A DNA stretch of 64,000 nt from Eledone cirrhosa. Lineage: Eukaryota. Positions 12,401-62,479 of this stretch are shown here, in pieces; the first letter of the stretch is position 1; each line of letters opens with the position of its first letter. Position numbers and translations under genes: made by a program. The stretch is taken from contig OZ024740.1 in the NCBI GenBank assembly GCA_964016885.1, forward strand, positions 107,446,001 to 107,510,000. Reading direction: 5' to 3'. The notes under the pieces are model-generated. The model worked only from the letters and a program-made list of their open reading frames with translations. It searched no databases and was not told the origin of the DNA.

Positions 12401-15400
12401 TTGTACTTTCTGAACACCCACCTCCCAGAGATTGGTGGTACTTGTTTCCTGTGGCTGTTTGCTGTCCCAGTACAGCTGCTGCATGTGAAGCCTACATTCT
12501 TAATTAAGCTTCCCAAGATCCCGCTACATCTCTTGTGTACCCATTGTTTGCATTTGGGGCAGAGAATGGAGTTCCTACCTACACCTTTCCTACATACTGA
12601 GCAAGGCCATTTCCCTGAGGGGATCTGGGTTCTGTTTTCTCGTCTACTTACAAGGACCTTAGTCTTTGTTATGTTGACTTTGAGACCCTTTCTTTCTACT
12701 CCCTGCTTCCAGGTTTGGAATTTCTTCTCTAGTTCTACCATAGATTCAGCTATAAGTGCGAGGTCATCAGCATACAGGAGTTCCCATGGGCATCCGGTCT
12801 TAAACTCCTCCGTTATTGCCTGCAGGACTATGATGAACAGGAGAGGGCTAAGAACAGAGCCCTGGTGGACCCCAACCTGTACGCTAAATTCCTCGCTATA
12901 CTCATTGCTAATCCTAACTTTGCTGACTGCTCCCCTATACATGGCTTGTACAGCTTTCACAAGCCATTCATCTACTCCTAGTTTTCTAAGAGCCCACCAG
13001 ATTACAGCGCGTGGAACTCTGTCAAAGGCTTTCTCGAGATCGACGAATGGCAGGTAGAGTGGCTTACTTTTAGCTAGGTACTTTTCCTGTAACTGCCTCA
13101 CAAGGAAGAGGGCATCAGTGGTGCCTCTTCCTGGTACAAATCCAAATTGCATCTCATCTAGTTTCACCCGGTCCCTAATCAACTGTGCTATAACTCTTTC
13201 TGTTACTTTCATGACCTGGTCCATCAGCTTTATACCTCTATAGTTTCCTCTATCGAGTGCATCACCTTTACCTTTGTAGCAGTTGACAATGATGCTACTG
13301 CACCAATCTTTTGGTATGACACCTAGTATTACCTGGTTAACAATACGTGTGGTTATAGTGTGACCTACAGACCCAGTTGCCTTCAGCATCTCGACAGCTA
13401 TACCCGATGGACCGGTTGCCTTCCCCATCTTCATATCTTTGATTGCCTTACTACGCTGCTGCTGACTTGTACTGCTGGCCCCTCTATAGGGTCTACTTGG
13501 GGTAGGGTCTCTTCTTCCCATGCATTCTCCTCATTTAGTAATCTATCATAATGACTCTTCCATGCATCTTTCTTCTCAGCACTTGTGAGGGCAAGTGTTT
13601 TACTTTTATTTAGTTAGTTTATTTGGGCTTCTGTTTGTGAATACAGTATTTTGGATTATAGTGTGATTTTCAGTCCCTCGAAAATAGTATCCATGAAATA
13701 ATCTGCTCCTAAAGAATGTTTTAAAATTTGACTTTTACATGAGAATATATATGGTAATATATGGTACACAAGTACCACCAATCACTGGGAGGGCTCTGTA
13801 GAAACAGTAGACAGCTTCTGCTACCTAGGTGACCGAATTAGCAGTGGAGGTGGGTGTTCAGAAAGTACAATAACTAGGGTAAGAACGGGATGGAAGAAGT
13901 TTAGGGAACTACTACCACTGCTAGCTGCAAAAGGCTTCTCCCTCAGAATGAAAGGCAGACTGTATGATGCATGTATCCGAACAGCAATGTTGCATGGTAG
14001 TGAGACCTGGGCGCTGAAGGTGGAAGACTTACGTAGATTAGAGAGAAACGAAGCCTGCATGCTCCGATGGATGTGTAACAGTAATATACGTGAACGACAA
14101 AGCATAAATGAATTGAGAGAGAGACTGAGCATAAGAGGAATCAAATGCTGTGTGCAGGAGAGGCGGTTGCGCTGGTATGGACATGTGATGCATATGAAGG
14201 ATGACAGCTGCATCAAAAGGTGCAGAGCACTAGAAGTCGATGGAAACCGCGGAGTGGGGAGACCCAAGATGACCTGGGATGAGGTGATAAAAGCCGACCG
14301 TACCCAATTACACCTCTCAAAGGCGATGACACACGACCGTGACCACTGGCGTCTCGCAGTAATACAGAGTACCCGACCTCCCATGAGTACAAGCTGAAGC
14401 ATATAGACAATATGCCCCCACACCCTCCACCGCAAGGTGGTCGTGGAGGTGCCACGGCAAAAAAGCACCCAGCCCACACTGTAAAGTGGACGTGTAGGCG
14501 CCACGAAAAAGCACCCAGCACTCACTGTAAATGAGGTTGGTGTTAGGAAGGGCATCCAGCTGTAGAAATCAAGCCAAATCAGTTCCTGTATGATCAAGGC
14601 ATGGTCAGCCGACCAGACACTGCCCACAACAGGACAACCCGTCTAACCCATGCTAGTGTGGAAGAACGGATGTAAAACGGTGATGATGATGATGATGTTT
14701 ATGTATGCTATGATATCTAATTAGTTAAAATCATGCCTAATTTATAGATTACCTTAACATGTGGACATTTTTCATACATAGGAGTCAATTCCCAACAAAT
14801 GGAGAAAGCAGCTCCAGTACTTTAACAAAAGCAATAGAACTGGCAACCAGCCGGGAAAGAATGCAGACGTTGTCCCCCAGTTCTCTCAATACTGTAAACA
14901 ATATAATTTCTGTGTTTAATGCTTCACAGAAAGAAATTTTAAACAGTGACAAAAATCAGGTAAGTTCATAGTTTATATTTTATTAACTAAAACAACACAA
15001 TTATAATTTCACTTTACAAATATTTATTTTTATTTCCGTTTCTTTGGTTTTTATTCTTGTTTCATAAAGTAAGGCAGATATGTTTAATTTTCATTTAAAA
15101 TAACTTAAAACTAGTTTTTGTGTTAGTTTTTTTCCTTTCCTGTCTTGTATACTACTTATGAGAAAAAAATGAATCATCATCATTGTTTAACATCTACTTT
15201 CCATGTTAGCATGGGTTAGACGGATTTGTCCCATTTGAGGCAAGTTGGGCCAAGTGAACATGTCTTACTCATATAGGACTGCTTCTGGCTGATTTTCTAT
15301 GGATGGATGCCCTTCCTAACACAAACCACCCACATTTACAGTGTGTGCTGGGTGCTTTTTGCCATGTCGACTACACGACCTCTTTACAGTGTGGGCTGGA

Positions 15401-18400
15401 TGCTTTTTGTCGTGACACCTACATCCAGTCTGGACTGGATGAATATATATATAGATATCGTCATCATCATCACCATTTAATGTCCAGTTTTCCATGCTAG
15501 CATGGGTTATATGAGTTGTCCCGTTGTGAGACAAGAATGATCAGGTGACCGTGTCTTGCTCATAAAAATTTGGTTCTGGCTTGGTTTCTATAGCTGGATG
15601 CCCTGCCTAATGCCAACCACATCTACAGTGTGTACTATATGTATGTATATGTATATATAGGGATATAGTGCGATCTCCAGCAGGCTGATGCTCAAGTGCA
15701 GCAAGTAGCAAGAGCCCACAGGATACTAGCTTCTTCAAATGCCCAGAGGGCTCAATAGGAGTATTAGCTAGTGTCTGTTACCTGGATGACCAAATTAGCA
15801 GTGGAGGAGGGTGTTCTGAAAGCACAGTAGCCAGCGTGAGAATGGGTTGGAGAAAATTCAGGGAGCTACTACCTCTGTTAACTACAAAAGGTTTTCCCCT
15901 CAAAATGAAGGGCAGATTGTATGATGCTTGTATATGAATAGCAATGTTACATGGTAGTGAGACCTGGGTGCCGTGTGCAATAGACCTGTGAAAATTGGAA
16001 AGAAATGAAGCTTCCATGCTTTGATGGATACATAATACAAGAACAGCAAATCATAAATGAACTAAGAGAAACTGAGCATATGAGGGATCAGATGCAGTGT
16101 GCAAGAGAGGAGATTGCGTTGGTTTGGACATGTGATGCATATGAAGTATGACAGCTGTATAAAATGGGGCATGGCGCTCAAAGTTGATAGAAGCTATGAA
16201 GTAAGCAATGATGCAGGACTGTGATCTCTGGCATTATGCAGTAATACAGACGGCCTGCCTTCCCATGTGAATGGGTTGGGGCATACATCTTGTATGCGCC
16301 ACCTTCCCCTCAATCACCCCTTCTATACACTTCCCATGTCATAACACCCATGCCTCTAGATCTACCTTCCCAATCCCCATGCACCTCATCCACCCAAGTC
16401 CCCAGTCCACACTGTAAAATGATCATTTTTTGGTGCCACGGCAAGGAACACCCAGTCCATACTGTAAAGTGGTTGTGCAGGTGTCATAACAAAAAGCACT
16501 CAGTACACGCTGTAAATGTTGTTGGTGTTAGGAAGGGCATCCAGCTGTAAAAATCAAGCCAAAATCAGTTCTGTATGGTCAAGTCATGGTCATCTGACCT
16601 GGCTTATCTCACAATGAGACAGCTCATCTAACCCATGCTAGTGTGAAAAATGGATGTTAAACAGTGAGGATGATGATGATGATGACATACATATATTTTA
16701 TATATGTACATACCTAGGAGATCAGATTAGCATGGGAAGGGGGTGTTCCGAGGCCATAGTATCTAGAATAAGGATGGGTTGGAAGTAGTTTAGGGAGCTG
16801 CTTCCTCTGCTGACGAAGAAGGGTTTCTCCCTGTGTACGAAAGGCTGGTTATATGATGCCTGTGTGAGGAGCGCGATGCTGCATGTTAGTGAGACTTGGG
16901 CAGCAACTGCGGAGGATATGCGACGGCTGGAAAGAAATGAGGCAAGCATGCTCCATTTGATGTGCAATGTCAATGTGCGTGAACAACCCAGCATGGATGT
17001 GTTGAGAGAGAAACTGTGTCTGAGAGGGATAGAATGTAGTGTGCAAGAGAGGAGACTGCGGTGGTATGGACATGTGATGCGCATGGAGGATGACCGATAG
17101 GTGAAGAAGTGCCAGGAAATGCCAGTTGAAAGAAGACGTGGTAGAGGTAGACCATGAAAAACATGGGCAGAGGTGGTGAGAACAGACCTCAAATCGCTGA
17201 AGCTCACGGTGGAGATGACGAAGGACCATGACAAGTGGAGAGATGCTGTGCTGCATAAGATCCATCCCACCCTTGCAAGCAGGGAAAAGTGGACGTAAAA
17301 TGCTGATGATGATGATGATATATATATATATACATATACATATATCCCTGAGATAAGCTTTCACTACTTCTTTCCATGTCTTCCTCTTCCACTTGGATAT
17401 GTGTGTCACTTTTACCTGTCTAACATCCTCCATATGTATTGCGTATCCATCCCAGCTCAGTCTCCTCTTGCACAATATATCTAATTCCTTTTATATCTAG
17501 TTTTTCTCAGCTTATTTCATTTAGTAGAGAATGCCCATATCATTTCTTTACAGTTTATGTACATCCTCTTTATTCAGTATATATGTTTCACTACTATAAA
17601 ACACTACACTTCATAAATAAGTATCGTACAATCTGTCCTTCATTTTGAGAGAGAATCTTTTTGTTGCCAGTAGAGGTAATATACTCCTGAATATATTTTT
17701 ACACCACATTTACTCTACCGACTATGTTTTTAAAACACCCATCTCCACCACCTCTGTATAACAGAAGCTGTCAACTACTTCTACTCCAAGTTAGTGGAAA
17801 GACTTATTACATCATGGGTGTTCTTACTGCTAACTACTTTGCTGAAACTGCTTCATAAGCAGTCCTCCTTCTCTATAATTTTGTTTGTGATTCCATTCCA
17901 CCTATTGTTCATTCATAGTTTACATTGGGTACATCATATGAAATTCCTACCTACTCCTTTTCTAACTATTAAGCATGGCTACTTTACAACTGGTTGTAAA
18001 GTCCTGTCTTTCCTTCTAATTAAAATATTTGTCAATGTTAGGTTTACATAACGACCAATAGTTCGACATTAACCCTTTTGTTACCATATTTCTAATGAAA
18101 AACACTGCTTATAATTTTCAATTACTTTTGAAAATATTCGAGAATTTAGTGGGATTTAGTAAAATAACTTTCTCATTATTTTTCTAGTATTTTTACGATA
18201 ACTTAAATGTTCTTACATGATGGAAGGTTTTTAGATAAATATAAACATTTTAAAATAAACAGCTTAGTATCATAGTACCAGGGACTGTTTCAGATGGTTT
18301 GGAACATAACTTTACAAAGGTTCTTCCATAAAATTATGCTTGGAGGATTTTAGAAAAATATAAACACTCTAAAACAAACAGGTTTGTATTGAAGAACCAG

Positions 18401-21400
18401 GGGTATTTGGAACATAACTTTACAAAGGTTCTTACATAAAATTATGATGGAAGATTTTTAGATAAATATAAACATTTTAAAATAAACAGCTTAATTTTAT
18501 AGAACCAGAGGTGGTTTCAATCTGTATGATATCAAAAGGGCTAATAAACAAAAATTTAAACAAAACAGTGATATATCAATAAACAGAACCAGATACTTTT
18601 TGTTCTGGTTATCTTGGCAACATTTTACTCTATAAACAATTTCAATATTGCCTTTTTCTCAGATGGAAAATTACTGTTGTAGACATTTTAATAAAAATGT
18701 GTTAGAAAACAAATGATAATAGTTTGGTGGATGAGTGGGGTGTCACTCAGAGAGGGAGACAAACAATGGATTATCGAGAATAGTGGGAATCGAGTCAGTA
18801 ATAAATGTTCTGAAGAAAAATGGAATGAGATGGCTGGGTCATGTTTTGAAAGATGATAGTGACTGAATGAGAGGAGTGATGGACATGAATGTGGAAGACC
18901 AAAAAAAAGACATACCTAAAAATAATGGAGGAGAAAATGAAAGTCAATGGGTTGGTGAAAGTTCATGCAGATGATAGGGCAAAATGGAGAAGATTGTCAT
19001 CGAGCTTGCAAGCCTAAGCTCCTTTTTTAGCTAGGAAAATGACCTTAACCCTTTACCAATTACATCACTTTATACTTACTCTTGTATTTTTGTGGTAAAG
19101 GCTTTATCTCACATAATGCCAAAGTTACAAGATTTTGATGCTATTTATTTTGAGAATGATACCTTATCATTGTTACGAGTGGCTGGTTAGGGCTGGTTTG
19201 AACAGAAAGAGGCGAGAGAATTCTGGCCAGTTTAAATGCTAATGGGTTAAGACGCTTGTTGTATATAAACAAAAATTAGTTATCTTTCTCGAGATATTAA
19301 CAAATATACAAGGGTTTTAGAAGCTACCCTTTTACTCCTTTTCAGTTCAGATAAACTCAGAAACCTGGTGATAATGTCTGCTCCATCTACTCCAACAGTT
19401 TTTTTCTCTCTCTCTCTCTCTTTGTGGAATGAAGCTTTGATGGGGAGACCATGAATTTACCAGTTTTGAAATCTCCTGTTAAATGGGTCCCTCTATTACC
19501 AACCCTTAATTGCCAAATATCAGTAACATTGGATTTGATACAGACAGGTAGGTGTCACCAGAGATGCCTTCACCATGCCTCAGCTAAGCCCTCATCACAC
19601 ATACATTTCCATTAAAACACTATTATACTGCTCAATACTAATGCTCAGATTACATTTAAATCTGCACATTTTCTACCATTTATTTTTACCCTATTGCTTT
19701 ACTTTTAGAAGAAAATATATCCATGGAATATTTTTGCCTCTCTTAGCAGCTTCTATTTTTCTCTTTGCATGCTTATAAAAATTTCCCCTTTATTCTTTAT
19801 GCTATCATTGCTGCATATATCCAATTTAGTATTATATCCCTGCATGTTGTAAGAGACAACTGAAAGGGTTGGCACCAAGAAGGACATCTGGCTGTAAAAC
19901 ATTGCCCCCAAAAGGACTCCAAAATGACCAGGTGACGGTTGTAACTTGAGAAAGGGAATCCTAATTTCATTATATGTAAGAAAGAGGAGAAAAATTGGAC
20001 TTTTAATAGTTTAGTATTCTTTAAGAATTGATATAGTAATGAATTTTGGAATAAGATAAATGTATAGTGGAGTAAAAGATCTGGAAGGAGATAGTGATGA
20101 TTAATTTATTGTGGGTTTAGAGTAGGATATATGAATTAGTGTAGGATAAATGTATAGGGGAGTAATTGGTATAAAATAAGATAGAATAATTGTTTCTACT
20201 TTTGGCACAAGGCCAGCAATTACTCAGTGCATTACTGGTACTTTATTTTATCGACCCCATAAGGATGAAAGGCAAAGTTAACCTTGGCGGGATTTGAACT
20301 CAGAATGGCAAGGGCCGTAACTCTATGCGTCAAAGCATGGCGTCTGACCCTCTCCCGATACTGCCAATCCACCGCCCTCATAAGATAGAATAATGGTCTC
20401 CAATATGGGTTCATACTTACCAAAAATTTCACTAAAATATTTTTGGTATTCAATAAAAAAAATGGTTTCCCCATGGGGTTTGACAGTTCTTCATGATATT
20501 CTAAAGCTTCTACTTTAATATGCTAGCGTGGAAGATGGATGTTAAACGATGATGATGGTATATATAATATATACTATAAATGAGAGTGTATGTGTGAATC
20601 GTCTAATAAAATGGATCTTCCCTGGTGCCATCCCTGAGACCCACAGTGGATTCAGAGCTGGGCGGAGTACTATGGACATGATTTTCTCAGCCCGTCAGCT
20701 AAGAAGTGTGTTGAGCAGCAAGTGTCACTATACCAAGTATTTGGGGACCTTACCAAAGCCTTTGATACTGTTAATCATAGTGCATTGTGGGTCATATTGG
20801 GGAAACTTGGATGCTCTCATGAGTTTGTTGGAATATTCAGAACCATCCATCAAAATATGAAAGCAAAAGTGAACTTCAATGAGACACTTTAAGAGCCAAT
20901 TTCAGTGGAAAACAGTGTCAAGCAAGGCGACATATCTGTACCCATTCTGTTCTCCATTTACTTTGCCGTGCTGCTGACATATGTCTTCCAAGATTTCAAA
21001 ATCGGTGTATACTTGCGAATTAGAATCCCTGGCAAAATCAGTTTAACACCAAGTCCAAAGCGTTTGGCACTCTTGATAGGGAATTCTTGTATGCTGATGA
21101 TGCAGATTTTGTGGCTCACACAATAGAGGACATGCAGACTGTTCAAGTGTCACATCTGTGAACGTACCTGCAAAACAAAAGCGTGTCTGAAAAGTCATCT
21201 GTATGCACATGATCGTGCAATGTTCAATGTGGTGGTGGTGGTGGTGGTGGTGGTGGGAGTAGTAGTGGTGGTGGTGGTAGTAGTAGGAGATTTTAGACAA
21301 ACTCTCCCAGATTTGATTGATCAAATCCAAGCCCGTTTGAAAAACATTGACACTTTGGACTTCTATCAAAGTTTTGAAGCTCACTACAAACACAAAGGCA

Positions 21401-22198
21401 TATCTTGGTGGAGATGAACAATCAGAGTAGTTCACCCAGAATTTATTAATGCTTGAGGACGGAAGACTTCCTGTAGATAACAAGGGAGTTATTGACATAA
21501 GTCCCATAGGCACGATAGTGGAATCATTATTCCATCTCATAGAAAAAGTGTTCCCTAATCTTGAATATCAGTTCGCAAGTCACAAGGGCTGTATTGGCCC
21601 CGAAAAATATGAATGTGAAATTGGTAAATCAAGAGCTGTTAAAAAGAATTTTAATGGTTTCAAAGCTCTATTGATCTGTCGACTCAACTCTTTAGAACAA
21701 TCAGGAATGTCTCCACATGTCCTTCACCTTGAAGAAGGAGCACCCATCATGTTATTGAGGAATTTGGACCCACCGAGGCTATGCAATGGCACTCGATTGG
21801 TTGTGAAAAATATGTATCCAGACGTAATTCAAGGCGCCATTTTAACAGGATGTGTTTGTTCCAAGAATTCCTCTTCTCCCCACTGATGTCCCACTTCAAT
21901 TTCTAGTGAGTCTTAGTTTTGCTATGACCATCAACAAATCACAAGGACTAACATTTTTGCTTACCGGTTTACACCTTGGTCACCCATGGTCAGCTTTACA
22001 TTGGATATTCAAGAGTAGGAAGTCAGAAAAATCTTTACATCTATGTGACAGATGTAAAAACAACAAACGTTATAAATTGACTAATTAATAAAGAAATCCA
22101 TCCTTCCTTTGAGGAAGACATGGTCTGACATGGAATAAAAAAAAATTGAAATAAAGGCATACTTTGTGATTATTGCCCAGCAATAAAGGGCTACTCAG

Positions 22199-22230
<32 letters not shown>

Positions 22231-25200
22231 ACGAAGGAAATGTGGTAAGGAACCAGGTGGACCATAACGCACCAAAGTACTCAATACTTGAGGTAGTAGA
22301 GTAGGTAATAGGAACCAGTAAGACCCCGACAGCTGAGCTCAAGCCGTTTCGACGGCTAATTCTGGACAATTCTGAGTCCAGAATTAGCCGTCGAAACGGC
22401 TTGAGCTCAGCTGTCGGGGTCTTACTGGTTCCTATATATATATATATATATCATCATCATCATCATCAGGTTTAGCGTCCGTGTTCCACGCTTGCATGGG
22501 TTTGGACGGGGGTTTTCCCACTTGAGGCAAGAGTGGTTGTCTTGCTCGCATAGGACTGTCTGGCGTGTTTTCTACAGTTGGATGCCCTTCCTAACACCAA
22601 CCACATTTACAGTGTGGGGCTGGGAGGTTTTTACCGTGTTGCCTACACGGCCACATTACAGCGTGGACTGTCTGGCGGGTTTTCTACAGCTGGATGCCCT
22701 TCCTAACACCAACCACATTTACAGTGTGGGGCTGGGAGGTTTTTACCGTGTTGCCTATATATTTAATAAAATAAAATAAAAAATATCTGTACATATATAT
22801 TCTATTATCAAGTTTAAGGGCTCAGTAATATTAGGGGTGCATATTAAAATAATAATAAAAATTGTGTACAGTGCTCGGGTGCATGTATAGTACATAGAAT
22901 ATTGTACAAATGTCAGGAAAGTGAACAATTTGGGAGTTATAATATACACACACACCCATGCGTGTGTGTATGGAGTGGGAATATCAGATGTAGTGTTGGC
23001 AAATTTCAGGAAGCATGGAAGTTTTGAAGGACAGTGTCCCGACAGCTAATAACTGATGCAGGTAGTTTGTTCCATGCTTCAGCAACTCTGAATGTGAAAT
23101 AACGTTTCCGAAAGTCATGGGAACTGTGCTGTTTTCTGATTTTGTAAGCATGTCCGGGTGTTAGACACATGGAATTCAAAAAGGTGCTCAGTGTTGTTGT
23201 TGGCAAACTGGTTAATAATTTTGTGGGTATCTACTAAGTCAGTTGCCAGACGTCGGAGCTTTAATGTATCCATGCCCAGGGAAGCAAGGTGTTCAGAGTA
23301 TGGTAGATGCCCGACGGAGGGTATTCACTTGGTTGCACGTCTCTGATCAGTTTCCAGGACGTCAATATTCTGAGCAAGATTGGTGATGCAAATTCGCTGC
23401 TGACAGTAATGCCCAGGTCATGTTTACAAGACGACTTCTTGAGATTAGTGTTGTGAAGGGAGTCTGTGAACGCTGGGTTTTTCCTCCCAAAATGCATGGT
23501 GGTACACTTGTCCACAGCCAGATTGAGTTGCCACTCTGTAATCTGCATTGTGCCCTTGTCTGAATGCAGGAAAGATCTATGTCATACAGAATCTGTCTTT
23601 CTTATCTCAAGACTGTGAGAGTTCCTGAAGTTCCAAAGTGTTTCTCTAACACAGGACTCTATCAGTTTCATGATGCAGCTAGTAAGACTGACTGGACGAT
23701 AGTTGACAGGTGACATGCGATCACCCTTTTTGAACAGAGGAATGACACTGGCAGTTTTCCACTGCTCTGGGGTAACACCGTTGTTAAAGCAGAATTGAAA
23801 GAAGAGTGAAAGCTGGTGCAGAAGAAAGGACTCACCACGTTTGAGAAGTAGGTACATAAGACCATCAAGACCAGGAGAGGCATAGTTGCACTTATTCTTA
23901 AGGTGGCGTCACAGCATTGCGAGTGTAAATTCCATAGTTGCTATAGAATTTGATGGTAGAGATAGTACATTTTGATTTTCAAGAATAAAAATGCCTGCAT
24001 AGCATTCAACAATGAGTTCTGCGCATTCTTTGGGATCATCAGTAATCTGGCTTGTGTGGGGATTGCGAAGAGGATCACCTGGAGAGTGAGGTCTCTGCTT
24101 TGAATGCATATTTTCAGAACACTTTGCTGTCAGGGTAGGTTGCTATACGCTATTCAAATTAAAAAAAAAAGATTGGAGACCATTGAAATAGAGAGATGAA
24201 TTTTGGAGTAGAGGGGCAGAGAGTATGGAAGGAGAGAGATACTATTATCATGTCAAGTGGCCATATAAAAGCTCCCTTGTTAAGGCCTCAGTAAGTAGCG
24301 TGTTGGTGATAAGATGTCCTTAAAGTGGGAGTAAATTAAAAATATTGTGAATATCTTGTGAATGGAAGGCTCTCATATTTTATGAGATCTATCGTGAATT
24401 GAAGATGGTTTCTTGAATTATATGTGTAAACTCACATGAAGCTTCTTTATCTTCTAGCAAGGTTTCAGAAAAGATTAACCCTTTCATTCCCATATTTCTA
24501 ATGAAAAACACTGCCTATGATATAAAAAATATATTTTTAAATAATCAAGAATTTGGAGGGATTTAGTAATGTAACTAACTTTCTCATCATTAATCTAGTG
24601 TTAGGAAGATAACAAAGGTTCTTACATAAAATTATGTTGGAAGGTTTTTAAATAAATATAAACACTTTGAAATAAACAGCTTTAGATCTTAGAATCAGGG
24701 GGCAGTTTCAAGAGGGTTAAACTTTTAGATATGAGGTTTGTGCTTTATTTATAATCTCCTTTTATTTCTTCTGAAAATTAGCATTCTTCATCATAACTTT
24801 TTTGTTTTACAATCTTTTAATTAAATATTTAAATAAAATTTATTTCTCTCTGTATATCTTATGATTTAAATTGAATAGGTTCACTGTGTCCCTATAACAT
24901 AGGGAAAGGTAACAACGTAACCTGACAAATCCGATGAAGGAAAGTATGTTTCCATTGGTCTTTCAGTTACTGATATTATCATTTGGTTGAAACTCTTGGC
25001 AGAAGCATCATTTTCCGGTGAGGTTAGGTGGGTAGTTGAATTCAGAACATATACCATAAAGCAGTGGTCGCCAACCTTTCTAAAACTGAGGAACCCTCTA
25101 AATATTTTGAATTCTTCACGGAACCTATACAATACAAAACTTTTCAAAAAAAAATAATAAAGTATTTATTTATTTTAGTGTTTCATGCGTGTGTATGTAA

Positions 25201-28200
25201 TCGAACACAATTAACTAGTGGCTTTTCTGCTGCTGCGCCTTATCAGTGAGTTGAGAAAATCGAGGTTCAACACTAGTTAATGCCAGTCTCATACACTCGT
25301 CAATTGCTGAGAGTTTATTCATCTTCTTTGTGCTGATTTCTACCAACTGTAAAAACCCTTTTTTGCACAAGTAGCTAGATGGGAATAAAGTAAAATATTT
25401 CAATGCAAATTGGCTGATTTCATTAAACTACCCAATCAAGAATAAGTCAATCCATAGTTCTTTCTTTCTGCTTTTGAATATCACTTTCAGGTCTTCGTTT
25501 GAATTCAAATCCATCAACTGATGTAAGCATTGTGCAGGTAGTAAATTTTTACAATTTCCAGCGTCATTTTCTGACACTAACTGCTCGATCTCGGTGAACG
25601 GGTTTTTTATCCATAAATTTCCGCTAACAATATCTTTTTCCATCAAGTCAAAATAATCTGAAAAACTTGTGGAAAGCACATTTAAATGAGAAAGAATAAT
25701 CTTCTTTTTAAGCTCTATTTCAAGGTTTGAAAGTAATGAGTAATTGTCCGATTCAATTCTTTGTATAAAGATGTTTAATTTTGATTGAAAATATGTAATA
25801 AAATTGATTGAAGTAAAAATATCTGCATTGTTACCCTGAAAACACTTATTTAGTTTGTTCAGTTCACCAAAAATGTCTACTAAATAAGCGAGTTGCACAT
25901 TCCATTCATTGGTTTCTAATACACTTGCTCTTTCATCATTGTTTTTTTAGAAAAACTATTATTTCTTCTCTCAGTTCAAAATCTCTCTTCATAGCATCCC
26001 CAAAGGACAGCCAACGCACATCATTGTTCAATAACAATCTATTATAATTACTTCCAGAAGATTCACAAATAGATTCAAACATTCTAGAATTTTTTGCTCT
26101 TGCAAATTGATAATTTTGACAATGTCTTTCAGCTGGTCATTTAATATTTGAGCATCTCTGTCTTTAAATTTTTTTGAACACAAAACCTCTCGATGAATCA
26201 TACAATGATTTGAAATACAATTTGGAGTCTGTTCTTTAATTTTTGCAATCAAACCAGAATTTTTACCAGTCATTGCAGCTGCTCCATCTGTTGTTATTGA
26301 AGTCAACTTGCTCCAAGATACACCATTTAAAAAAAAATACTCTTCAATTTTATTGAATATATCTTGACCTTTAGTTGTGTTGTCTAATACCAGACAAAAC
26401 AAATACTCTTCTACTCATTCTTTTTTATCAAGGTCTACAAACCGTACATAGCAAATTAATTGAGCCTTGTTACTAATATCCGTAGTTTCGTCCACTTGCA
26501 GACCAAAACATGTGCTTTTCTTTAGTGCAGTTAATATCTGATTTTCTATATCTGAAGAAATATCAATTATCCTTCTTTTTACGGTATTTGCTGACAATGG
26601 TAACTGGCTTAATTTTTCTTTGTCCTTAATACTGCAGCTTTCAAAAAGATTCTCTGTAGCAATTTTTATACTTGGCAGAATTAACTGTTCTCCTAATGTA
26701 AATGGTTTCTTGTCTTTACCAATCAAATGTGAAATTTCAAAAGATGTTCTTGTTAAAGCTTTATTTCTATCTGACTTTTCACAAAACAAGTCATACATAT
26801 TAGCTTGTGATTTTTTGATGTAAAGTATTCCAGTGACTTGTTTTTATCATTGGTGTGATTAGTATCAAGGTGTCTTTTAAGTTTTGCAGGATTTAAACAG
26901 CTATTTGATAGAACTTTTGAACATAGCAAACACATGGGCTGATCTGGTGTATCTTTTTTAAATCCATATCTAACAATCATCACACCACTGTCTAACCTTA
27001 CTGCTGGTATCTAACTTCAGCTTCTTTGCAGTAGACATCATATCAATGTTATTTATCTACAGTTAACATTTTTAATATGACATTAATAAACAAGAGGGCG
27101 ATATCCAATTTTAGCGGCCTAAATGCCGCTTACTTCAATGTATGAGGCTATTCCAACAAATTTACATTCCCCCCTTTTTTTAGCCGTTAAAAGAAATATA
27201 GATTTTTTTTTTTTTTTTTTTTTTTTGCGATTTATTAGAGAGGGGGGTGCTCCCTTCTCTTACCTGTACAAGCCGATATAGAGAGATGGCCCACGTACAC
27301 GGGCCATTATTGCTACTTTCACCCATCTTTCATGGAATTGGCTGGGACTGAGTGCCTTTTTCTCCAAGAGGACCATTTGTTGGCCGGCGACATATCCCCA
27401 CAGTTTCCTCGTTGCAAACGCATCTGGGACATTTCTTTTCCAAGGGGTTTCCGTCCCGGAAGAGCCTTTCCCGAACAGGCAGGGCCCCTCGGTATAATAG
27501 TAAGTATTAGTGGTTGTAATAAAAATGCAATCAAAATATAATAAATACCTTCACTGATTTCGGCGATATCCAATTTTAGTGGACTAAATGCTGCTTACTT
27601 CAATGTATGAGGCTATTTCAACAAATTTACATTCCCCTTTTTTTAGCCGTTAAAAGAAATATAGATTTATTTATTTTTTTTTTCTTTTGCGATTTATTTG
27701 CCACTAGAGCATTAGGCGGGGGAATTTTTTTTACAAAAATCAAGTACAAACATTTAACGAGTGATTAAAAAGGAATATAAAACATTAAGTCCTCAATAGA
27801 GAGGCAGCCTTTTGGGGTCGCACACACCCCCGGATAAAGTGTGCTCCCTTTCTGCCAGGGAGCACAGAGAGAGGGGGGGTGCTCCCTTCTCTTACCTGTA
27901 CAAGCTGATATAGAGAGATGGCCCACTTACACGGGCCATTATTGCTACTTTCGCTACCCGCCTAATGCTCTAGTGGCAAATAAATCGCAAAAAAACAAAC
28001 AAACAAAAACGTGGCAAATAAAGAAATCTATGCCCCAGTGGCAAATAAATCGCAAAAAAAAAAACAATAAATAAATCTATATTTCTTTTAACGGCTAAAA
28101 AAAGGGGAGTGTAAATTTGTTGGAATAGCCTCATACATTGAAGTAAGCAGCATTTAGTCCACTAAAATTGGATATCGCCCTGATTTCTTTCCTTATATTA

Positions 28201-31200
28201 TCAACCAAAGTTCGCTTTGTATGTTCCCAAATAGCAGTGAATTTTGATAAAATTGTTTTCTAATTCCTTCTCCACAGTAAGACAAATATCCATGTGTAGT
28301 TGAAGAGGATAAGTATGAGAGAACAGTCATTTAAATTTACAGGACAGATGTGTTTGGCAGGGTTTGAGATATATAGAAAAATAATTATTTACAGAAAAAG
28401 AAAATAATAATAAAGAATTATTATAATTTTTTTTAAAGATTTATATCTTTTTGGACTTTTGGAAGCAAATTTTAAACTGTATATCGCAACAATAAAAAAG
28501 AAAAAAATATTTCTTTAAACAATATATTGTTCCGATATACAGTTTAAAATCTTTAGGAAACATCTACCGTCTCCACCCATAAAGCTGTCATTTCGCCACC
28601 GCCACATGAATTAATTCAAATATGACTGAAACATGGGTCGGCTAGTGCCGTTTATTTTTTTTTTGGCATGAGACCAGAGTCCTTCAATATGTTGGGTATG
28701 CGTTCCTGATACCGGATCGACAAAATTTAGTGAATGATTCACTGTAGAGTGCTGATAATTAACAGGCATATGTTGTATGGGATTGTATGCACACCATCGG
28801 TCCGTATGTATCATGGATCCACTCAGCACATGGTTTTGTATAATGGGTAACAGGGTCTCAGCAGTGCGATCTGGGATTTCTTGAAGAAAAATTTTTCTGG
28901 GATTATTGGTATCGATCCCACCAATGACCCAATGGCCTTCATGCCAGGTCCCACGAGCGTACTTTCGATGAAAGTATTTACTTTCATCGATTTGTACAAC
29001 TATTGGGACTCCGTCATCATCCATTCCACCGAGTTTTGATGGGTTTCGATCCACCCATTCACTGCACACTCCCGTAAAAAGTTGCACCAGTCAATAATGG
29101 TGTTTTCACTACACCGAATCTCGTCGGCAATAATAATATTTTCGAACCCAATTGACCAGAAGTAAATCATATAAATCATTTGATGTAAATCTAAGTGGCC
29201 TCGAAAAAAAAATGACCCAGAACGGACAGATTTTCTTAAACTGCATACCTTAAATTTCCATCGAAATTGGTCGATTCCTTCTTTGTAACTTACAAACGAA
29301 CAGGAAATATTACATGAAGGACAGTTCATAGTGTTTGAAAGTAATCGGTTCCGAGCGATAAATTCGATAATACTGAGTTTGTTTGCAGTTAAAATCGCCA
29401 GTTCCCTCATTTTCAAATCCATATTTAACGTCTGCTGTGATGAATTAACATTTTCAACAATGAAAATTGGTGCAGGTGGACGTCCAGGCATTTTCTTTAT
29501 TCAGAATTTCAGTTTAAAATCAATTAGAACTATGTTATTTCACCTTTAACAATATCTGCATTGAAATGACCGGCAGGGAGCTAGTTATGCCAATTCGTGG
29601 AAAATACCCAAAGATTATGTATATTAATATAAGTTTCACTTTATAAATTTCAGTTTAAAATCAATTATAAGATAATCACCGACAGAGGGCTAATATTTAT
29701 AATTTTGGGTTATTTTCCACAATAAAGTGAAACTTATATTAATATATTGTTATACTTTGGGAGGGTCATGTTGCCAATAAGAAACACACGCACCAGTTGC
29801 TTTCACTTCAATTTATTATAATAAATTTATAAATTTCTGGTTGGTTGGTTGGTTCCACAATCAGATAGTTGTTTATATATAGTCATAGTTCTTTCGTCAC
29901 ACACTCTGTGACCTCTTCAGTGACTGGGGATTCCTTTCTTTGTTTCTGTGCCTCTCCTTTGTTCTGTCCTACGCCATTTTGTTTCTGTGTGTGTGTTGTG
30001 TGCTCAGTCCGCGCATGCGCCACATCCGGGTGTCTGTGTGTTTATGTTCATTTATTTATTTACATGTTACTGGTTGGTTGTTTGTTCTATGTGTGTGTGT
30101 GTTTTCATTTTGTCCTTAATTGTAAGTTGTGACGTTGCTGTTCCACTCATATTTTCTATTTAATTTTGGTTGTAATTCTTTTATGTTTATTGCCTCTGTA
30201 ATTTGTCTAAACATTGCGTCTTTTCTGTGTGTAGATTCTATTTTTATTTCTATGTTCTCTAATTTACCCTTGTGTTCTATTTTAGCATGTTGGTAGAGTA
30301 CGGATGATTCTTTATTATCTTGAAGGTCTCGCCAGTGTTCATTTATCCGTTCCCCTACACTACGAGCTGTCTCACCTATGTACACTATATTTTTGTCTCT
30401 ACATTGTCCTTCAGTACATCTTATGCTATACACTACATTTCTAGTTTTACAGTTAATATGGAGGCTTATTTTACAGGTTATACATTTCTTATCTATACAT
30501 GAGGGTCTTTGAAAAGGGTATGTCTTGCTAATAAGTGTTTTTACGGAGGTACCTGGTCTTTCTACTATCTTAATATTGAGTTTATGTTTATTTAGGGCCC
30601 TTCTAAATTTGTAAGCTAATTCACCTCTAGGGGTTGTATCGATGAACATTACACTCTGGTATTTATTGCTATCATATTATGAGTTTATTCTATTAGCCTT
30701 GTTCCTAGTTCTTTCTATTCTATTCCAAAATTTGCTCCTATACAAGGGGGCAGGTCCCATTTATGTCATTATTTACCATTTTTTCCCATTTGGTTCTGTC
30801 ATCGATACAACCCCTAGAGGTGAATTAGCTTACAAATTTAGAAGGGCCCTAAATAAACATAAACTCAATATTAAGATAGTAGAAAGACCAGGTACCTCCG
30901 TAAAAACACTTATTAGCAAGACATACCCTTTTCAAAGACCCTCATGTATAGATAAGAAATGTATAACCTGTAAAATAAGCCCCCATATTAACTGTAAAAC
31001 TAGAAATGTAGTGTATAGCATAAGATGTACTGAAGGACAATGTAGAGACAAAAATATAGTGTACATAGGTGAGACAGCTCGTAGTGTAGGGAAACGGATA
31101 AATGAACACTGGCGAGACCTTCAAGATAATAAAGAATCATCTGTACTCTACCAACATGCTAAAATAGAACACAAGGGTAAATTAGAGAACATAGAAATAA

Positions 31201-34200
31201 AAATAGAATCTACACACAGAAAAGACGCAATGTTTAGACAAATTACAGAGGCAATAAACATAAAAGAATTACAACCAAAATTAAATAGAAAATATGAGTG
31301 GAACAGCAACATCACAACTTACAATTAAGGACAAAATGAAAACACACACACACATAGAACAAACAACCAACCAGTAACATGTAAATAAATAAATGAACAT
31401 AAACACACAGACACCCGGATGTGGCGCATGCGCAGACTGAGCACACAACACACACACAGAAACAAAATGGCGTAGGACAGAACAAAGGAGAGGCACAGAA
31501 ACAAAGAAAGGAATCCCCAGTCACTGAAGAGGTCACAGAGTGTGTGACGAAAGAACTATGACTATATATAAACAACTATCTGGTTGTGGAACCAACCAGA
31601 AATTTATAAATTTATTATAATAAATTGAAGTGAAAGCAACTGGTGCGTGTTTCTTATTGGCAACATGACCCTCCCAAAGTATAACAATATCGGTTTCAAC
31701 ACCCGATTTCAGATAAAGAATCTTGCTAAACAAATTCAGAAACGAAATATATTAATATACATAATCTATATTTCTTCCCGTGTACGTGGGCCATCTCTCT
31801 ATATCGGCTTGTACAGGTAAGAGAAGAAGGGAGCACCCCCCCCCCCCTCTCTAATAAATCGCCAAAAAAAAAAAAAAAAATCTATATTTCTTTTAACGGC
31901 TAAAAAAAGGGGGAATGTAAATTTGTTGGAATAGCCTCATACATTGAAGTAAGCAGCAACTGCAGCAAGTAAGCGGCTTAAATGCCGCTAAAATTGGATA
32001 TCGCCAACAAGAGAAATTAAGTTCTTTTTATTACAAAAAGTACTTAAATTAACTTTAATTTTAGATATTTGGAAAAACTTAACTAGTTAAAAAAAAATTT
32101 TAATTTTTAAAAATTGAAATTTCTCCATTTTAGGATGGCAAACATATTATTTAAAGTCTTATAATAATATTAAAATATTAGGGGTTACTGAAAAAGGTGC
32201 AAATTTATAAACAACTAGAAGAAATTTTTTTCAGAGTTCAGCACTTCCTGCATATACTACTTTAGGGTCGTATTAAATATTATTGGTAATGTAAATATAT
32301 TTAAATATCCGCCATACTAAAAGATGCAAAAAATGAAAATCAGCTGATAGTGTAGAAAATGTGACGATGGTATTGGAAATTTATTCAGATATCTTCTATC
32401 TATTTTGACTCAAAGTTAGATATAATATAAGAAGGTTTTAGGCTGCGTTAAACATATATTAGATTGGAACAAATAAAGTTTAGTCAAATGTTTGTAGACA
32501 TATATATTTATTATATAAAGTAATTTCTCAATTGTGAATGCAGATGTCATCAAATGAATACATAATTGTGTGGCAAAGTTTATAGTGTATGCATGGAATA
32601 CAAAATTACCTTTGTTAGTAGTCGAAACTTTACAGGCGTTATATTTTCTGTGCAAAGTACAACAGAATGTAACGTGTTCTTATTTAGAATTGTCTGTGGA
32701 ATTGGATGCATGTTGAAAACGACTAGTAAGCGAGTTCACTCTGTGAGGAAACTTTAGGCAACTTTAAAGCTTTTGTGAGGACAGCAGATTAAAACGTGTT
32801 CTATATTGAAAACATTCTACTGAACTTACGTTGTGAGAACAGCGAACTGATCCTGTCTCTCGGCTGAGAGACCTCGCTGAACTGAGGTTTTCAGTTTAAA
32901 GTTATGCTGTCATTGACCAACATTTACTTGTTTGTGATTGGTCAATTTCTAAGTTCAATTAGTAGTAGTCAAATTCTCAGAATTCAGAAAACTATGTCTT
33001 TCCAAGAATTGATGTGAAATTGAAAGTATTCAATTTCCACGAATCTCGGAACAGTGTTTTTCTGCTAATTCAAGTAAGAAACTGAAAGTAGTGTTTTCTA
33101 CGAATAGGAGTGGAGAACCTGTGTACACTACAATAGTACTCGTTCATTTATACATTGCACCTTTTTCAGAAAACCCAAAATATTAAAGGTAATGTAAATA
33201 TTTATTTTTTTAAGGAACGCGGAGTTTGCTTTACGGAACCCCAAGGTTCCGCGGAACCCATGTTGGCGACCACTGCCATAAAGCACCCCATGTAATCCTT
33301 TAACAATTCCACTAATCCACTGCTCCTGAACTTGTACTTTTATTTATTGAGCCTCAGCAGTATTTGAATTCAGAGCACAGAAAGATGGAAATATCATCAC
33401 AGTTGTTTTTACATTGACTTTTCCATGCTGGCATGGGTTGGACAGGACTTTTTGAGGCAATGTTTTACAGCTGGATGCCCTTCCTGACATCAACCATTTT
33501 AGTCACTTCTTACATCATGCAGGAATACAGTGTACCTATTCTAAACCAGATACACACAGACTTGATAAATACCACAAACGATTCTTGTCTGCCACCCCAA
33601 CCATGCTGCCAATTTACCACCATTAGGTAACATTGACAAAGAAAAACATGATAAAACAAGGGAAATTACTTTAGAATATTTAAACCATTCTTTTCTTCTC
33701 CTGATCATCAATCCCAAAACTCCTAATGGGTAATGTTATGATAAATGATGTATCTTGGGCATTTTAAACCTGGCAGCGACCATCGCTTTCCAGATTTGAT
33801 CACAGTGATTTCCACCAGAGAGAGAGAGGGAGAGAAGGTTAGGGAACTACCCCTTTCGAGATTTGATCACAGCAGTTTCCTCCAGTGAGAGAGATAGAAG
33901 GTTAGAGAATCATCCCATTCCAGATTTGATTACATCGGTTTCCTCCAGCCAGAGAGAGAGCAAAAGAAAGAAGGCTAGAGACAAGAATCAATCCCAGTTT
34001 TGTAATGGTACATTATTTATTAACCCTGAAAAAATGAAAGGCAAAGTTGGCCACAGCAGGATTTGTGCAAAGAGCCAGAAGGCATATTGCAAAGTATTCC
34101 ATCTGACACCCTAATGACTCCTTTTTCCTCCTCTTCCTTTATTCTAATATTTAATCTTTCATTATTTATCCAGTATTCTGTCATTGTTTGTCTCTCGACT

Positions 34201-37200
34201 CTTCTGGTTAATGTTTAACTCTTCTTTCTACTGCTTAGAAGTTTGGTAAGTGACTTCTTCTGAAACTGTGTTGAAACTAAAACAATAACATTATGGAACA
34301 GTCATTTTAGCCATTGAAAAATGCACTAAGATGATTAAATTTACTTTCCATTTAATTTATGAGGTGTCAAAACTTTCTACTGCAGTGAAATTATGCAAGT
34401 GAGCAGCTTGCAGCACAGTTTAGCATTTAAACTGGCTGTATCCAGCCAGAATTCTTTCACCTTTTTCTGTACAAACTGGCTGTAACCAGCCACCCAGTCA
34501 TATAGTTATGAAATAAACTTCTTAACCACACAACTATGCTTGTACTCAGTTTTAACCTTTTAGCATTTAAACTGACCATATCCGGCTGGAATTCTTTCAC
34601 CTCTTTCTGTTCAAACTGGCTGTAACCTGCCACTCATACCAATGTTTAGATATTATTTTTGAAATAAATATCAAAATCTCATAGATTCGATGTTATGTGA
34701 GGTAAATACTAAAATCTAAATACTAAAAGGTTACGGCCATTTTCCTTACTAAATTAGGGCTTAGTCTTGAAGGCTCCATGATAGACTTCATTATCATCCT
34801 TGGGTTCTTTTTAAGGCAGTATATTTACAGCTGGGTGCCTTTCTTGTTACCAGCCCTTTTAGTCACCTCTTATGACATACAAGGAAACTAGTTATTCTAA
34901 ACTGTGTAAAGTGGTTGGTGATAGAAAAGATGTCCAGCTATAGAAACAATGCCAAACTGAAATGTTTGTAAGCTAGATGTAGTCTCCAACCTATCATGGA
35001 GGACAATAACTCCAATTAAGAACTGACTTTGTCTGAGATGACCCATCCAACCCATGCCAGCATTGAATAATGGGTGTTAAATGATAATTGTTTCTACTTT
35101 TGGCACAAGGCCAGCAATTACCCAGTGCATTACTGGTACTTTATTTTATCGACCCTGTAAGGATGAAAGGCAAAGTTAACCTCGGCGGGATTTGAACTCA
35201 GACGATAAAGGACTGTAACTCTATGCTGCAAAGCATGGTGTCCGACTCTCTACCGATACTGCCAATCCACCGACCATGGGTGTTAAATGATAATGATGAT
35301 CATACAGTGGTGTGACGAAAATTTCGACACCTAACAAAATGTTAGTTTTAATGATGAATGTTCCTGTTATTTGATCAACAGAACAGCCTGCTTGTGAAAT
35401 TAACGTGTAAGTGACTGAGCATTCTACAGAGATATGTACACTTAATGTGATAGGAAGGGCATCCAGCTGTAGAACGCTTGCTAAACAAAGGATCGGGAGG
35501 ACCCTTCAATCATGTTAAGGATATGACAGCCTCCCTAGTGTTGGTGATGTATATAATAAACTCACTCAGTACATACTGTAAAGTGTTTGGTGATAGAAAG
35601 AGCATCCAGCTGTAGAAATCTTGCTAAACAAAGGGTTGGGAGGACCCTCAGTTGTGTCAAAGACATGACAAAGTCTCTTGTGAGACCGTACATAGACAAG
35701 ATGACAGATTGCAGGCCTGTCTGGGAGATCAGTAGCTGCCACTCCAGTACTGACTTAGTCTATGTAGATCCATCTAACCCTTGCTAGCAGGGAAAGCGGT
35801 TGTTAAAACAATGATGTCAATGATGATGATGGTTCAGCATGACTGTATGTAATGAAGCTGGTCCTTTGAATTACAGTTACAGTCCATTTGATGGGCTTCC
35901 AAACAGTTTCCATCTGCACAGTTTTGCTCACAAGGTTTGTGTCAAACTGAAGCTATGGTAAATGACATTTGCCCATGAGTCCATGCAGTGGGATTGAACC
36001 CAGGACCTAATGGTTGCGAAGTGAACTTTATAATCATTCGGCCCTGCTGAGCCTGCAACTTAAAATAAATGGAAAGTGAATATAACATGTTTTTAGATGG
36101 CTAAAATTACTCTTCCATGAAGTTATTTTTTTCTAGACTTTGTTAACTTAATCTTTTATAATTTGTTCTACCATAACCCATTATTCTGTTTTAACATTTA
36201 AATCTTATCTTTCCTTTCAATTTGTGTGGGATTCTGTTCATATTTACAAAATTATGATTTACTCTGCATTATGAAAGTATTTTGCTTCATTCAACTGGAA
36301 GCAATTTTTATTATATTTCCTTACACATTGTTTTCCAGGCTGACCTCAGCGACTTGATTGAGACAAGAGACAGCACTCGTGTAAAGTTATGTGAAAGTCT
36401 TAGTATGTGTTTAGCTGATCTTTCAAACATTCCATTAGAAGAGAAACTAAAACAAATGCAAGTAGGTATCAATTTGTAGTTATTGAATATTTCTAAATAT
36501 GTACTCTATGTGAATTAATAAGCATTATCATCATTATTTTCCATCTATTTTTCCATGATGGCATGGGTTGGACACATCATTATTGACCAAGTTATTACAT
36601 AATTAGAACTATTGTTCTTCAATATGGACCATGGGTCACATTTTACTCACATATCTTCCAGTTTTAATACTGTTTCTACAGTCCTTTCAACCCTTTGTTT
36701 GGCATAGTTACTGTTATAATTGGACCTGTTTGTATCTCTGTATGAATGAAGGTAAAACCAAAGTATTTATCAGACGTAATTTCGAACTATCAATGAGATC
36801 ACTACGAGCCTCCATTTATACAGTCTGCTGACAGTTCACTTCAGTTATTATTTATAGACATTTCGCCTAGCCCACATTTAGTTATGCGGGCGTGTTCAGG
36901 GTTTTTCTGTACAACAGTTACTACAGATGGATGCCTTTCCTAATGCCAACCACTTTTCAGAGTGTACAGAGTGCTATTTATTGTGTCTCCTGACATGATT
37001 GAAGAGTCCTTTCAACCCTTTTTTTGGCATAGTTACTACAATTGGATGCCCTTCCTAATGCCACCCACTTTACAGAGTGTACTTGGTGCATCTTATCATG
37101 GCACCAGCATTATGGAGGCTGTCATATCCTTTACATAAATGAGGAATCTCCAACTAATAATATACACTTGCTGTTATATATAAATCTAAAGACTAAACTA

Positions 37201-51778: not shown

Positions 51779-51809
<31 letters not shown>

Positions 51810-61744: not shown

Positions 61745-62479
61745 GTGAGTAAAGAAAACTTCTCCACAAATCCTTTTATTAGTGTCACTGTCATGGGTGA
61801 TGAACATGGAGCATAAGTGTTCTTGTAAACATTGCTGTTATTCTGTATATCATTATCAACATCTTCATAATTGTTTAACGTCTGTTTTCCACACTTGCAT
61901 GGATTAGATGAGTTGTCGACTTGAGGCAAGTCAGGTCCGGAGACCACATCTTGCTCATAAAGACCTGTATTTTGGCTTGGTTTCTATGGCTGGATGCCCT
62001 TTCTAACACCAACTACGTTACAGTATAAACTGGTTGCTTTTCATCATGGCACCCAAACGATCACCTTACAGGGTGAACCTGGCACTTTTTGTCATATCAC
62101 CAACACGACCACCTTACAGTATGGGCTGGGTGCTTTTTGTCATGTCACCAGCACAACCACTTTATAGTGTGGACTGGGTGCTTTTTGTTGTGTCACCAAC
62201 ATGACCACCTTACAGGATGGACTGGGCACTTTTTGTTGTCACCAGCACAACCACTTAACAGTATAGTATTATCATTATAATGTTAGTAAAGATTACTGCT
62301 ACTCTCTACATGTAGCCATCTTTTTAAAAGGTGTATGATGCATGTGTGACAAGTGACATGATATATAGGAGCAAGACATGGGTGATGAACATGGACCAAC
62401 AGAACTGACTGGCAAGAATGGAAGTAATGGTTCAATGGATGAGTAGAGTATTGTTCAGAGAGGATGATAGGAATAAAGT

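What the first reader, a model, noticed from the sequence alone, without database searches (positions are those of the whole stretch)
29747..31747. Penelope-like foldback insertion: ~0.9-kb near-perfect hairpin with a hammerhead ribozyme in each arm, carried inside a Merlin transposon
Seen: two near-identical inverted arms around a 153-bp spacer. Each arm encodes the GIY-YIG endonuclease C-terminus and a pLTR with an intact minimal type I hammerhead (31519-31563 +, 29881-29925 -). On the minus strand the spacer continues the PLE ORF upstream (PLYRSKFWNRIER...YQSVMFIDTTP). Established: PLE pLTRs carry minimal hammerheads thought to work as dimers, and PLE insertions can be inverted. Inference: in the STK31-like pre-mRNA this would fold into a long dsRNA, a potential ADAR/Dicer/piRNA substrate. 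The fold would also mask the sense ribozyme from cleaving the intron. It may act as a self-targeting silencing source inside a germline Tudor gene.
Basis: partly seen in the sequence, partly recalled or inferred. Interest (0 to 1): 0.75.

Follow-up and report, generated by a model that had tools for sequence, protein, structure and literature searches.

The report
Head-to-head Penelope insertion in octopus intron
This 2-kb mirror-image repeat is a dead, back-to-back pair of ends of a very abundant Penelope-like jumping gene that landed in an older transposon inside a gene's intron; it is an ordinary copy, useful mainly because its readable landing site suggests the element likely copies itself from both cut DNA strands at once.

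Summary
The foldback is real: arms 29744-30645 and 30799-31690 are 98.2% identical around a 153-bp spacer. Each arm has a GIY-YIG C-terminus and a minimal hammerhead motif. It lies in a Merlin copy inside intron 14960-36338 of an STK31-like gene of an octopod. It is the published layout of Penelope-like insertions (inverted 5'-truncated copy, tail on one end). The family's end motif occurs 27,081 times in this genome, and 54 of the first 100 matches form such pairs. The scan has noted the same layout at many other loci. The Merlin does not spread it: 11 of 12 matching Merlin sites are empty. The spacer frame is broken. No RNA data exist for the silencing idea, and the same gene holds another 851-nt inverted repeat. 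Two results add something. One arm has the long 3' tail and the other the short in 25 of 26 classifiable unselected pairs (P 4e-7). The known empty site shows a symmetric 6-12-bp palindromic duplication with no added TA repeat. Both favour priming from both nicked strands at two RNA sites 60 nt apart (inferred).

The parts
29735..29746 (.). Left copy of the palindromic target TATATTAATATA; its last 3 nt also fit the element end
   Evidence: single copy at 11 empty Merlin sites
29744..30798 (-). Left arm plus spacer: 5'-truncated PLE 3' end (about 1.06 kb) ending at the SHORT tail site
30646..30798 (-). 153-nt spacer: upstream PLE coding sequence contiguous with the left arm, with a stop and a frame break
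30116..30676 (-). GIY-YIG endonuclease C-terminal frame with CX4CxxC linker and CCHH motif (fragment, no start)
29881..29925 (-). Minimal type I hammerhead motif (antisense to host transcription)
30799..31750 (+). Right arm: 5'-truncated PLE 3' end ending at the LONG tail site
30799..31328 (+). GIY-YIG endonuclease C-terminal frame (fragment)
31519..31563 (+). Minimal type I hammerhead motif; predicted cut after CUA at 31558
31691..31750 (+). 60-nt tail present on the right arm only
31748..31759 (.). Right copy of the palindromic target TATATTAATATA; its first 3 nt also fit the element end
27097..32005 (-). Merlin DNA transposon, ends GGCGATATCC..., 8-bp TSD AACAAGAG; transposase split over two frames at 28611-29500
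27562..28181 (.). Nested non-autonomous Merlin with 8-bp TSD CTGATTTC
14960..36338 (+). Host intron (GT...AG) of the STK31-like RRM-Tudor-kinase gene

Best explanation
The foldback is a single dead insertion of an endonuclease-bearing Penelope-like retrotransposon, likely made when the element's nuclease nicked both strands of an AT palindrome and each freed 3' end primed reverse transcription of element RNA. Shown: two outward-facing 3' ends, one stopping at the short site and one 60 nt further at the long site; both junctions in mirror register on a 12-bp palindrome with 3 nt of overlap each; a 6-12-bp duplication; no added TA repeat; a blunt or near-blunt head-to-head joint. Inferred: a staggered cut with 3' overhangs, two priming events at the two AATAT sites, and end-joining of two truncated cDNAs. 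The insertion likely has no host function. Its predicted dsRNA would be one of many repeat duplexes, and its lone sense hammerhead is likely inactive.
For: Neither arm can be a DNA copy of the other: the left has 153 nt the right lacks and the right has 60 nt the left lacks. Of 27 pairs taken from the first 100 pattern matches, 25 are long+short, 1 is long+long and 1 runs on as a tandem: 25 of 26, P 4e-7 against 50%. Among 21 further pairs at loci picked by similarity, 19 are long+short and 2 are unclassifiable. Seven more partners found in 14 'solo' loci are all long+short. The short-tail arm reaches further 5' in 23 of 46 pairs, the long-tail arm in 18, and 5 are within 20 nt; this excludes copying of one arm from the other as the general route. 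Partner arms are among the closest 10% of sampled arms in 42 of 52 comparisons. The empty site is read at 11 other Merlin copies. An anole PLE protein cuts and extends both strands, starts at two adjacent RNA sites that bound the tail, and is predicted to be a dimer (PMC11167929, parts 1-2 of 4 read).
Against: All evidence is genomic; no intermediate was seen. One pair (L103) is long+long. In this copy all 6 arm differences are derived in the left arm, one is shared with 15 other arms, and the right arm is closer to another locus (2 of 886) than to its partner (6 of 889), which fits two templates as well as one. The anole study saw no difference in start site between strands and no primer-template homology, unlike the TAT overlap here. 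The cut geometry rests on one locus. No independent read crosses the joint.
Confidence: 0.72

Rival explanations
1. The inverted unit forms first as free or half-attached DNA by self-priming or fold-back, and the endonuclease then resolves it at two different sites, giving a tail on one end only.
For: Proposed in print: self-priming on an antisense template (PMC3846280, passages) and EN-mediated resolution of the intermediate (PMC8557442, passages). A few short pairs are centred on AT-rich palindromes with equal arm length (L078, L083, L109). A near-palindrome lies at this joint.
Against: Simple fold-back copying makes the short-tail arm a subset of the long-tail arm, yet the short-tail arm reaches further 5' in 23 of 46 pairs, this one included. 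Only 5 of 46 have arms within 20 nt of each other.
Confidence: 0.15
2. Two independent insertions landed at the same palindrome in opposite directions.
For: The family is abundant and targets TA runs, where neighbouring insertions occur. The 6:0 split of differences.
Against: Head-to-head neighbours within 5 kb number 27 against 2 tail-to-tail in the first 100 matches (counted by eye). No target DNA lies between the arms. The long+short rule and the kinship of partner arms are unexplained by it.
Confidence: 0.03
3. One reading: the hairpin is a selected, self-targeting silencing source that also shields the intron from its ribozyme.
For: An 885-pair duplex that includes the hammerhead is predicted. 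Mouse STK31/TDRD8 is germ-cell specific (PMC3929691, search listing only).
Against: The copy is young (0.7% between arms) and one of thousands by extrapolation. The gene holds other long inverted repeats. Sampled copies show no A>G excess over T>C on the element strand (3.16 vs 3.54 per 1000), although that tests only edits copied back into DNA. The same mouse paper's title says the gene is dispensable for reproduction. Octopod expression was not tested.
Confidence: 0.05
4. Assembly or chimeric-read artefact.
For: No listed record bridges the joint in 4 public runs.
Against: The arms differ by 6 substitutions, 2 indels, a 60-nt tail and a 153-nt extension; each end is a family-typical end; the target is cleanly duplicated; dozens of loci share the layout with different breakpoints. 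The runs are short-read contigs or RAD-seq, not known to be of the same individual.
Confidence: 0.04

Closest known systems
Inverted-pLTR insertion units of EN+ Penelope-like elements (Adineta vaga Pen2/Pen2a, PMC3846280; general scheme in PMC8557442 Fig. 2; D. virilis Penelope, PMC2377424)
   Same: Inverted 5'-truncated copy adjacent at the 5' end, tail on one end only, short TSD (8-10 bp there, 6-12 bp here), pLTR running into the ORF start, TATA-like motif in the pLTR.
   Different: Tail is 60 nt rather than 30-40. No direct upstream pLTR in this copy. The one-long-one-short pairing is counted here as a near-strict rule.
Neptune/Nematis-type PLEs (PMC8557442, passages)
   Same: C-terminal GIY-YIG with CCHH and a CX2-5CxxC linker; RT upstream with a DKS motif; (TA)n targets.
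   Different: No tree with reference elements was built, so Neptune and Nematis are not separated.
Minimal hammerheads of metazoan PLEs (PMC4209133)
   Same: [quoted passage not shown]
   Different: The 2-nt loop 3 (AA, or GA in 20 of 108 arms) is not palindromic, so the dimer helix III is predicted weak (+1.4 kcal/mol vs -4.8 for a palindromic control).
Anolis Poseidon PAc in vitro system (PMC11167929)
   Same: Two adjacent start sites bounding the tail; AT-rich target; both strands used.
   Different: PAc starts without primer homology and showed no strand difference in start site; here both sites end in AATAT that overlaps the target, and the two ends of one insertion differ.
L1 twin priming (recalled; PMC2837659 seen as listing only)
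   Same: Two primers from the two target strands give an inversion between TSDs.
   Different: L1 twin priming splits one copy into non-overlapping parts; here both arms carry the same 3' end.
Merlin superfamily (PMC8101967, passages)
   Same: 5'-GG ends, 8-bp TSD, DDE_Tnp_IS1595 domain.
   Different: Copies of this family are mirror-built with arms of very variable length; one has the transposase gene in both arms.

Membership tests
EN+ Penelope-like element | C-terminal GIY-YIG endonuclease with CCHH motif | tested here: met
   Pfam PF01541 in both arms; two Cys inside the core and downstream His residues visible in the translation
EN+ Penelope-like element | RT upstream of EN in one ORF | tested here: met
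   Not in this truncated copy. In sister copies 95-97% identical: 774-aa and 1169-aa frames with YVDD and DKS motifs; Pfam RVT_1 E 3e-4, below its cut-off, for one and no hit for the other
EN+ Penelope-like element | pLTR with optional tail; tandem or inverted arrangement | tested here: met
   tandem array of about 4.05-kb units at L072/L075
EN+ Penelope-like element | RT phylogeny places it among PLEs | not tested
   Homologue search gave 236 mostly unnamed proteins; no tree with named references
Neptune/Nematis type | CX2-5CxxC linker before the GIY-YIG core | tested here: met
   CIDKKCITC in both arms; does not separate the two clades
Hydra clade | CCHH absent, linker CxCX5C | tested here: not met
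   CCHH and CX4CxxC present
Naiad/Chlamys | N-terminal endonuclease, no canonical hammerhead | tested here: not met
   EN is C-terminal; hammerhead motif present
PLE minimal hammerhead | Conserved core, helices I and II, extra nucleotide after A9, NUH site | tested here: met
   core and stems nearly invariant in about 100 arms; common variation at N7, loop 2, loop 3, H17 (A/U) and the outer pair of stem I; no compensatory pair changes, flanks also conserved, so covariation gives no support
PLE minimal hammerhead | Palindromic 15.2-16.2 and loop 3 for the dimer fold | tested here: inconclusive
   G15.2-C16.2 can pair, but loop AA is not palindromic
PLE minimal hammerhead | Self-cleavage | not testable with these tools
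   needs an assay
Merlin | TIR with terminal GG and 8-9-bp TSD | tested here: met
   matching 8-bp flanks also at L028 and L034
Merlin | DDE_Tnp_IS1595 transposase | tested here: met
   62.8 bits; frame split in this copy
Composite transposon carrying the PLE | Merlin+PLE unit at more than one locus | tested here: not met
   1 of 12 exact target-site matches holds the PLE; none of 40 scored candidates of 43 extends into it except the window

The most novel reading that the evidence does not exclude
A Penelope-like protein dimer holds ONE RNA at two AATAT sites 60 nt apart, nicks both target strands symmetrically, and makes two overlapping cDNAs from that same molecule by strand displacement. 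This would fix one long and one short tail on every inverted insertion and explain the inverted-plus-tail layout that has stayed unexplained for the whole class.
Probability: 0.35. Interest if true: 0.6.

Novelty: new member of a known kind. Interest (0 to 1): 0.22.

Why it matters
As a locus it matters little: it is one young copy of a family with tens of thousands of ends in this genome. Its value is as a footprint. Nearly all sampled sister copies sit in TA microsatellites where the target cannot be read. This one sits in unique sequence with 11 empty homologous sites, so it gives the duplication, the symmetry of the two junctions and the absence of an added TA tail. With the near-strict long/short pairing, this makes a precise prediction for the existing in vitro PLE assay on how inverted insertions arise, which PMC8557442 calls undefined.

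Tried and rejected
Rfam scan to E 10 found no hammerhead; the motif rests on pattern, folding and PMC4209133. Search for tiny hidden inverted partners at the 5' ends of solo copies in the first locus set found none beyond those already mapped (the script stopped at its last record). An RNA-editing footprint in genomic copies was rejected. A bias of mutations towards the short-tail arm was rejected family-wide (173 vs 216 over 16 pairs), so this copy's 6:0 split may be chance. The Merlin+PLE composite was not found elsewhere. Whether the PLE entered before or after the Merlin reached this intron cannot be told. The far end of the tandem arm at L041 was not found in the next 10 kb. Literature searches for a counted long/short rule or a two-primer model for PLEs listed none by title or abstract start; this is a limited library and I read no supplements, where such detail may lie.
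Full report
Observation. The longest inverted repeat in the window has arms 29744-30645 and 30799-31690, 902 aligned columns at 98.2%, with six transitions and indels of 8 and 2 nt in simple repeats, around a 153-nt spacer. Each arm encodes a GIY-YIG C-terminal fragment (Pfam 23.1 and 23.4 bits, cut-off 22.6) followed by a pLTR with a hammerhead motif at the stated places. The spacer is element sequence upstream of the left arm: in other copies it runs straight into the arm sequence. It is not an open frame here; a stop separates the two quoted peptides and a frame break lies further up. The right arm continues for 60 nt beyond the mirrored part.

Setting. tblastn of a 1375-aa Octopus vulgaris protein named STK31-like (RRM, Tudor, kinase; 92% identical to one exon) maps exons on + from 340 to 61746. 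The insertion lies in intron 14960-36338. The organism is therefore an octopod; I did not try to name it further. A Merlin runs 27097-32005 with GG ends and an 8-bp duplication, and holds a nested 620-bp Merlin with its own 8-bp duplication. Its transposase (62.8 bits) is split over two frames. These features meet the Merlin criteria quoted in PMC8101967 (passages).

Target site. Twelve places in the genome match the 26 nt ending in the target palindrome exactly; eleven continue as plain Merlin and only the window continues as PLE. The empty site has TATATTAATATA once. The window has it on both sides (29735-29746 and 31748-31759). At each junction the element's last three letters also fit the palindrome, in mirror register, so the duplication is 6 to 12 bp. 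No TA repeat was added. 'Carried by Merlin' is not shown.

Family. A 26-nt end motif occurs 27,081 times (0 for the reversed control) and the hammerhead pattern 16,061 times. Longer copies have RT upstream of the endonuclease and form tandem arrays of about 4.05-kb units. A CX4CxxC linker and CCHH motif point to the Neptune/Nematis type (criteria from PMC8557442 passages); no tree was built. Of the first 100 listed end matches (first 21 Mb of one contig), 54 form 27 head-to-head pairs within 5 kb, against 2 tail-to-tail neighbours (counted by eye; the pairs were fetched). Extrapolated, that is about 7,000 pairs; this is an estimate from 100 of 27,081 matches.

Tail rule. Copies end at one of two sites, both finishing in AATAT and 60 nt apart. 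Of the 27 pairs, 25 have one long and one short end, one has two long ends (L103) and one runs on as a tandem: 25 of 26, P 4e-7 against one half. Of 21 other pairs at 37 loci chosen by similarity, 19 are mixed, one has a broken end and one runs on as a tandem. In 14 loci fetched as solo matches, 7 partners turned up, all mixed. The short-tail arm reaches further 5' in 23 of 46 pairs, the long-tail arm in 18, and 5 are within 20 nt; these 46 include the window and one tandem arm counted as long. Partner arms rank in the closest 10% of sampled arms in 42 of 52 comparisons (26 pairs with at least 150 nt overlap).

Mechanism. Neither arm of this copy contains the other, so both came from a longer template. 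Both outer ends are element 3' ends joined to target DNA in mirror register. The simplest reading is a staggered cut with 3' overhangs, target-primed reverse transcription from each strand, one at each RNA site, and joining of the two truncated 5' ends. These steps are inferred. They agree with the anole PLE protein, which cuts and extends both strands, starts at two adjacent sites bounding the tail and is predicted to dimerise (PMC11167929, parts 1 and 2 of 4). Against a single RNA template in this copy: all six differences are derived in the left arm, one is shared with 15 other arms, and the right arm is nearer to another locus than to its partner. The same study saw no strand difference in start site. 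Published alternatives are self-priming on an antisense template (PMC3846280 passages) and endonuclease resolution of an intermediate (PMC8557442 passages); simple fold-back copying fails for the 23 pairs whose short-tail arm is longer.

Hammerhead. The motif matches the minimal PLE type: short helix I, long helix II, an extra nucleotide after A9 (PMC4209133, first two of four parts). That paper also reports pairs on opposite strands and no detectable cleavage by a single motif. Helices I and II form in isolation (pair probabilities 0.5-1.0 depending on context), but the AA loop 3 is not palindromic and the dimer helix is predicted weak. Core and stems are nearly invariant in about 100 arms, without compensatory changes, and the flanks are conserved too. 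In the full foldback the sense motif is paired to the antisense arm.

Function. No RNA data of this organism were available. The window holds 40 inverted matches of at least 150 nt and 85%, one of 851 nt at 96.8% in an upstream intron. Genomic copies show no A>G excess. Nothing singles this locus out as a silencing device. An artefact is unlikely for the structural reasons above, but no independent record crosses the joint.

Prior art and verdict. The layout is described as typical of PLEs (PMC8557442, PMC3846280, PMC2377424; passages). A repeat annotation of O. vulgaris lists recently active Penelope and Merlin families (PMC13282606, passages). Eight earlier notes of this scan describe the same layout at other loci of this genome, and one already suggests two primers (unreviewed, looked up after my own counts); none lies near this window. 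Verdict: a new member of a known kind, interest 0.22. The readable target site and the counted tail rule are the parts worth keeping. Supplements of the cited papers were not read and may hold related counts.

Noticed in passing
window 27097-32005; L022-L035, L118-L129: This Merlin family is itself mirror-built. Copies have two arms of very variable length around a 77-bp centre bounded by a 25-33-bp inverted repeat; L022 has the transposase gene in both arms, pointing outwards. The centre occurs in both orientations relative to the transposase among copies.
   Followed up: partly
window 11575-14695: An RTE-like LINE also lies as a tail-out inverted pair (851 nt, 96.8%) with (CAT)n/(ATG)n at both outer ends, ending 85 nt before an STK31-like exon; it may be a second case of priming from both strands.
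   Followed up: partly
window 27562-28181: Nested 620-bp non-autonomous Merlin with perfect 8-bp duplication inside the larger Merlin.
   Followed up: partly
window 25428-27010 (-): Decayed hAT-like transposase fragments (weak DUF4371 hit, E 0.0015); the Merlin appears to have inserted at the edge of this element.
   Followed up: no
L072 and L075 (G000:C4 about 94.73-94.75 Mb): Tandem array of at least three about 4.05-kb PLE units, one with a 1169-aa open frame rich in Asn/Thr/His in its N-terminal part, like the N-rich inserts described in rotifer PLEs.
   Followed up: partly
window 62372-64000: 90-bp tandem array (about 17 units) derived from a LINE 3' coding segment that keeps a 421-codon open frame.
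   Followed up: no
window 3286-3714: The STK31-like exon carries a short internal tandem expansion (repeats of about 13-16 residues) relative to the O. vulgaris protein.
   Followed up: no
window 21043-21886 and 56846-57283: Two PIF1-helicase-like fragments by eye, probably Helitron relics; label recalled, not tested.
   Followed up: no
window 51380-55267: Long LINE-like element (ORF1 with Gln/His runs, endonuclease and RT frames) with an inverted 85% relative at 22984-24163.
   Followed up: no
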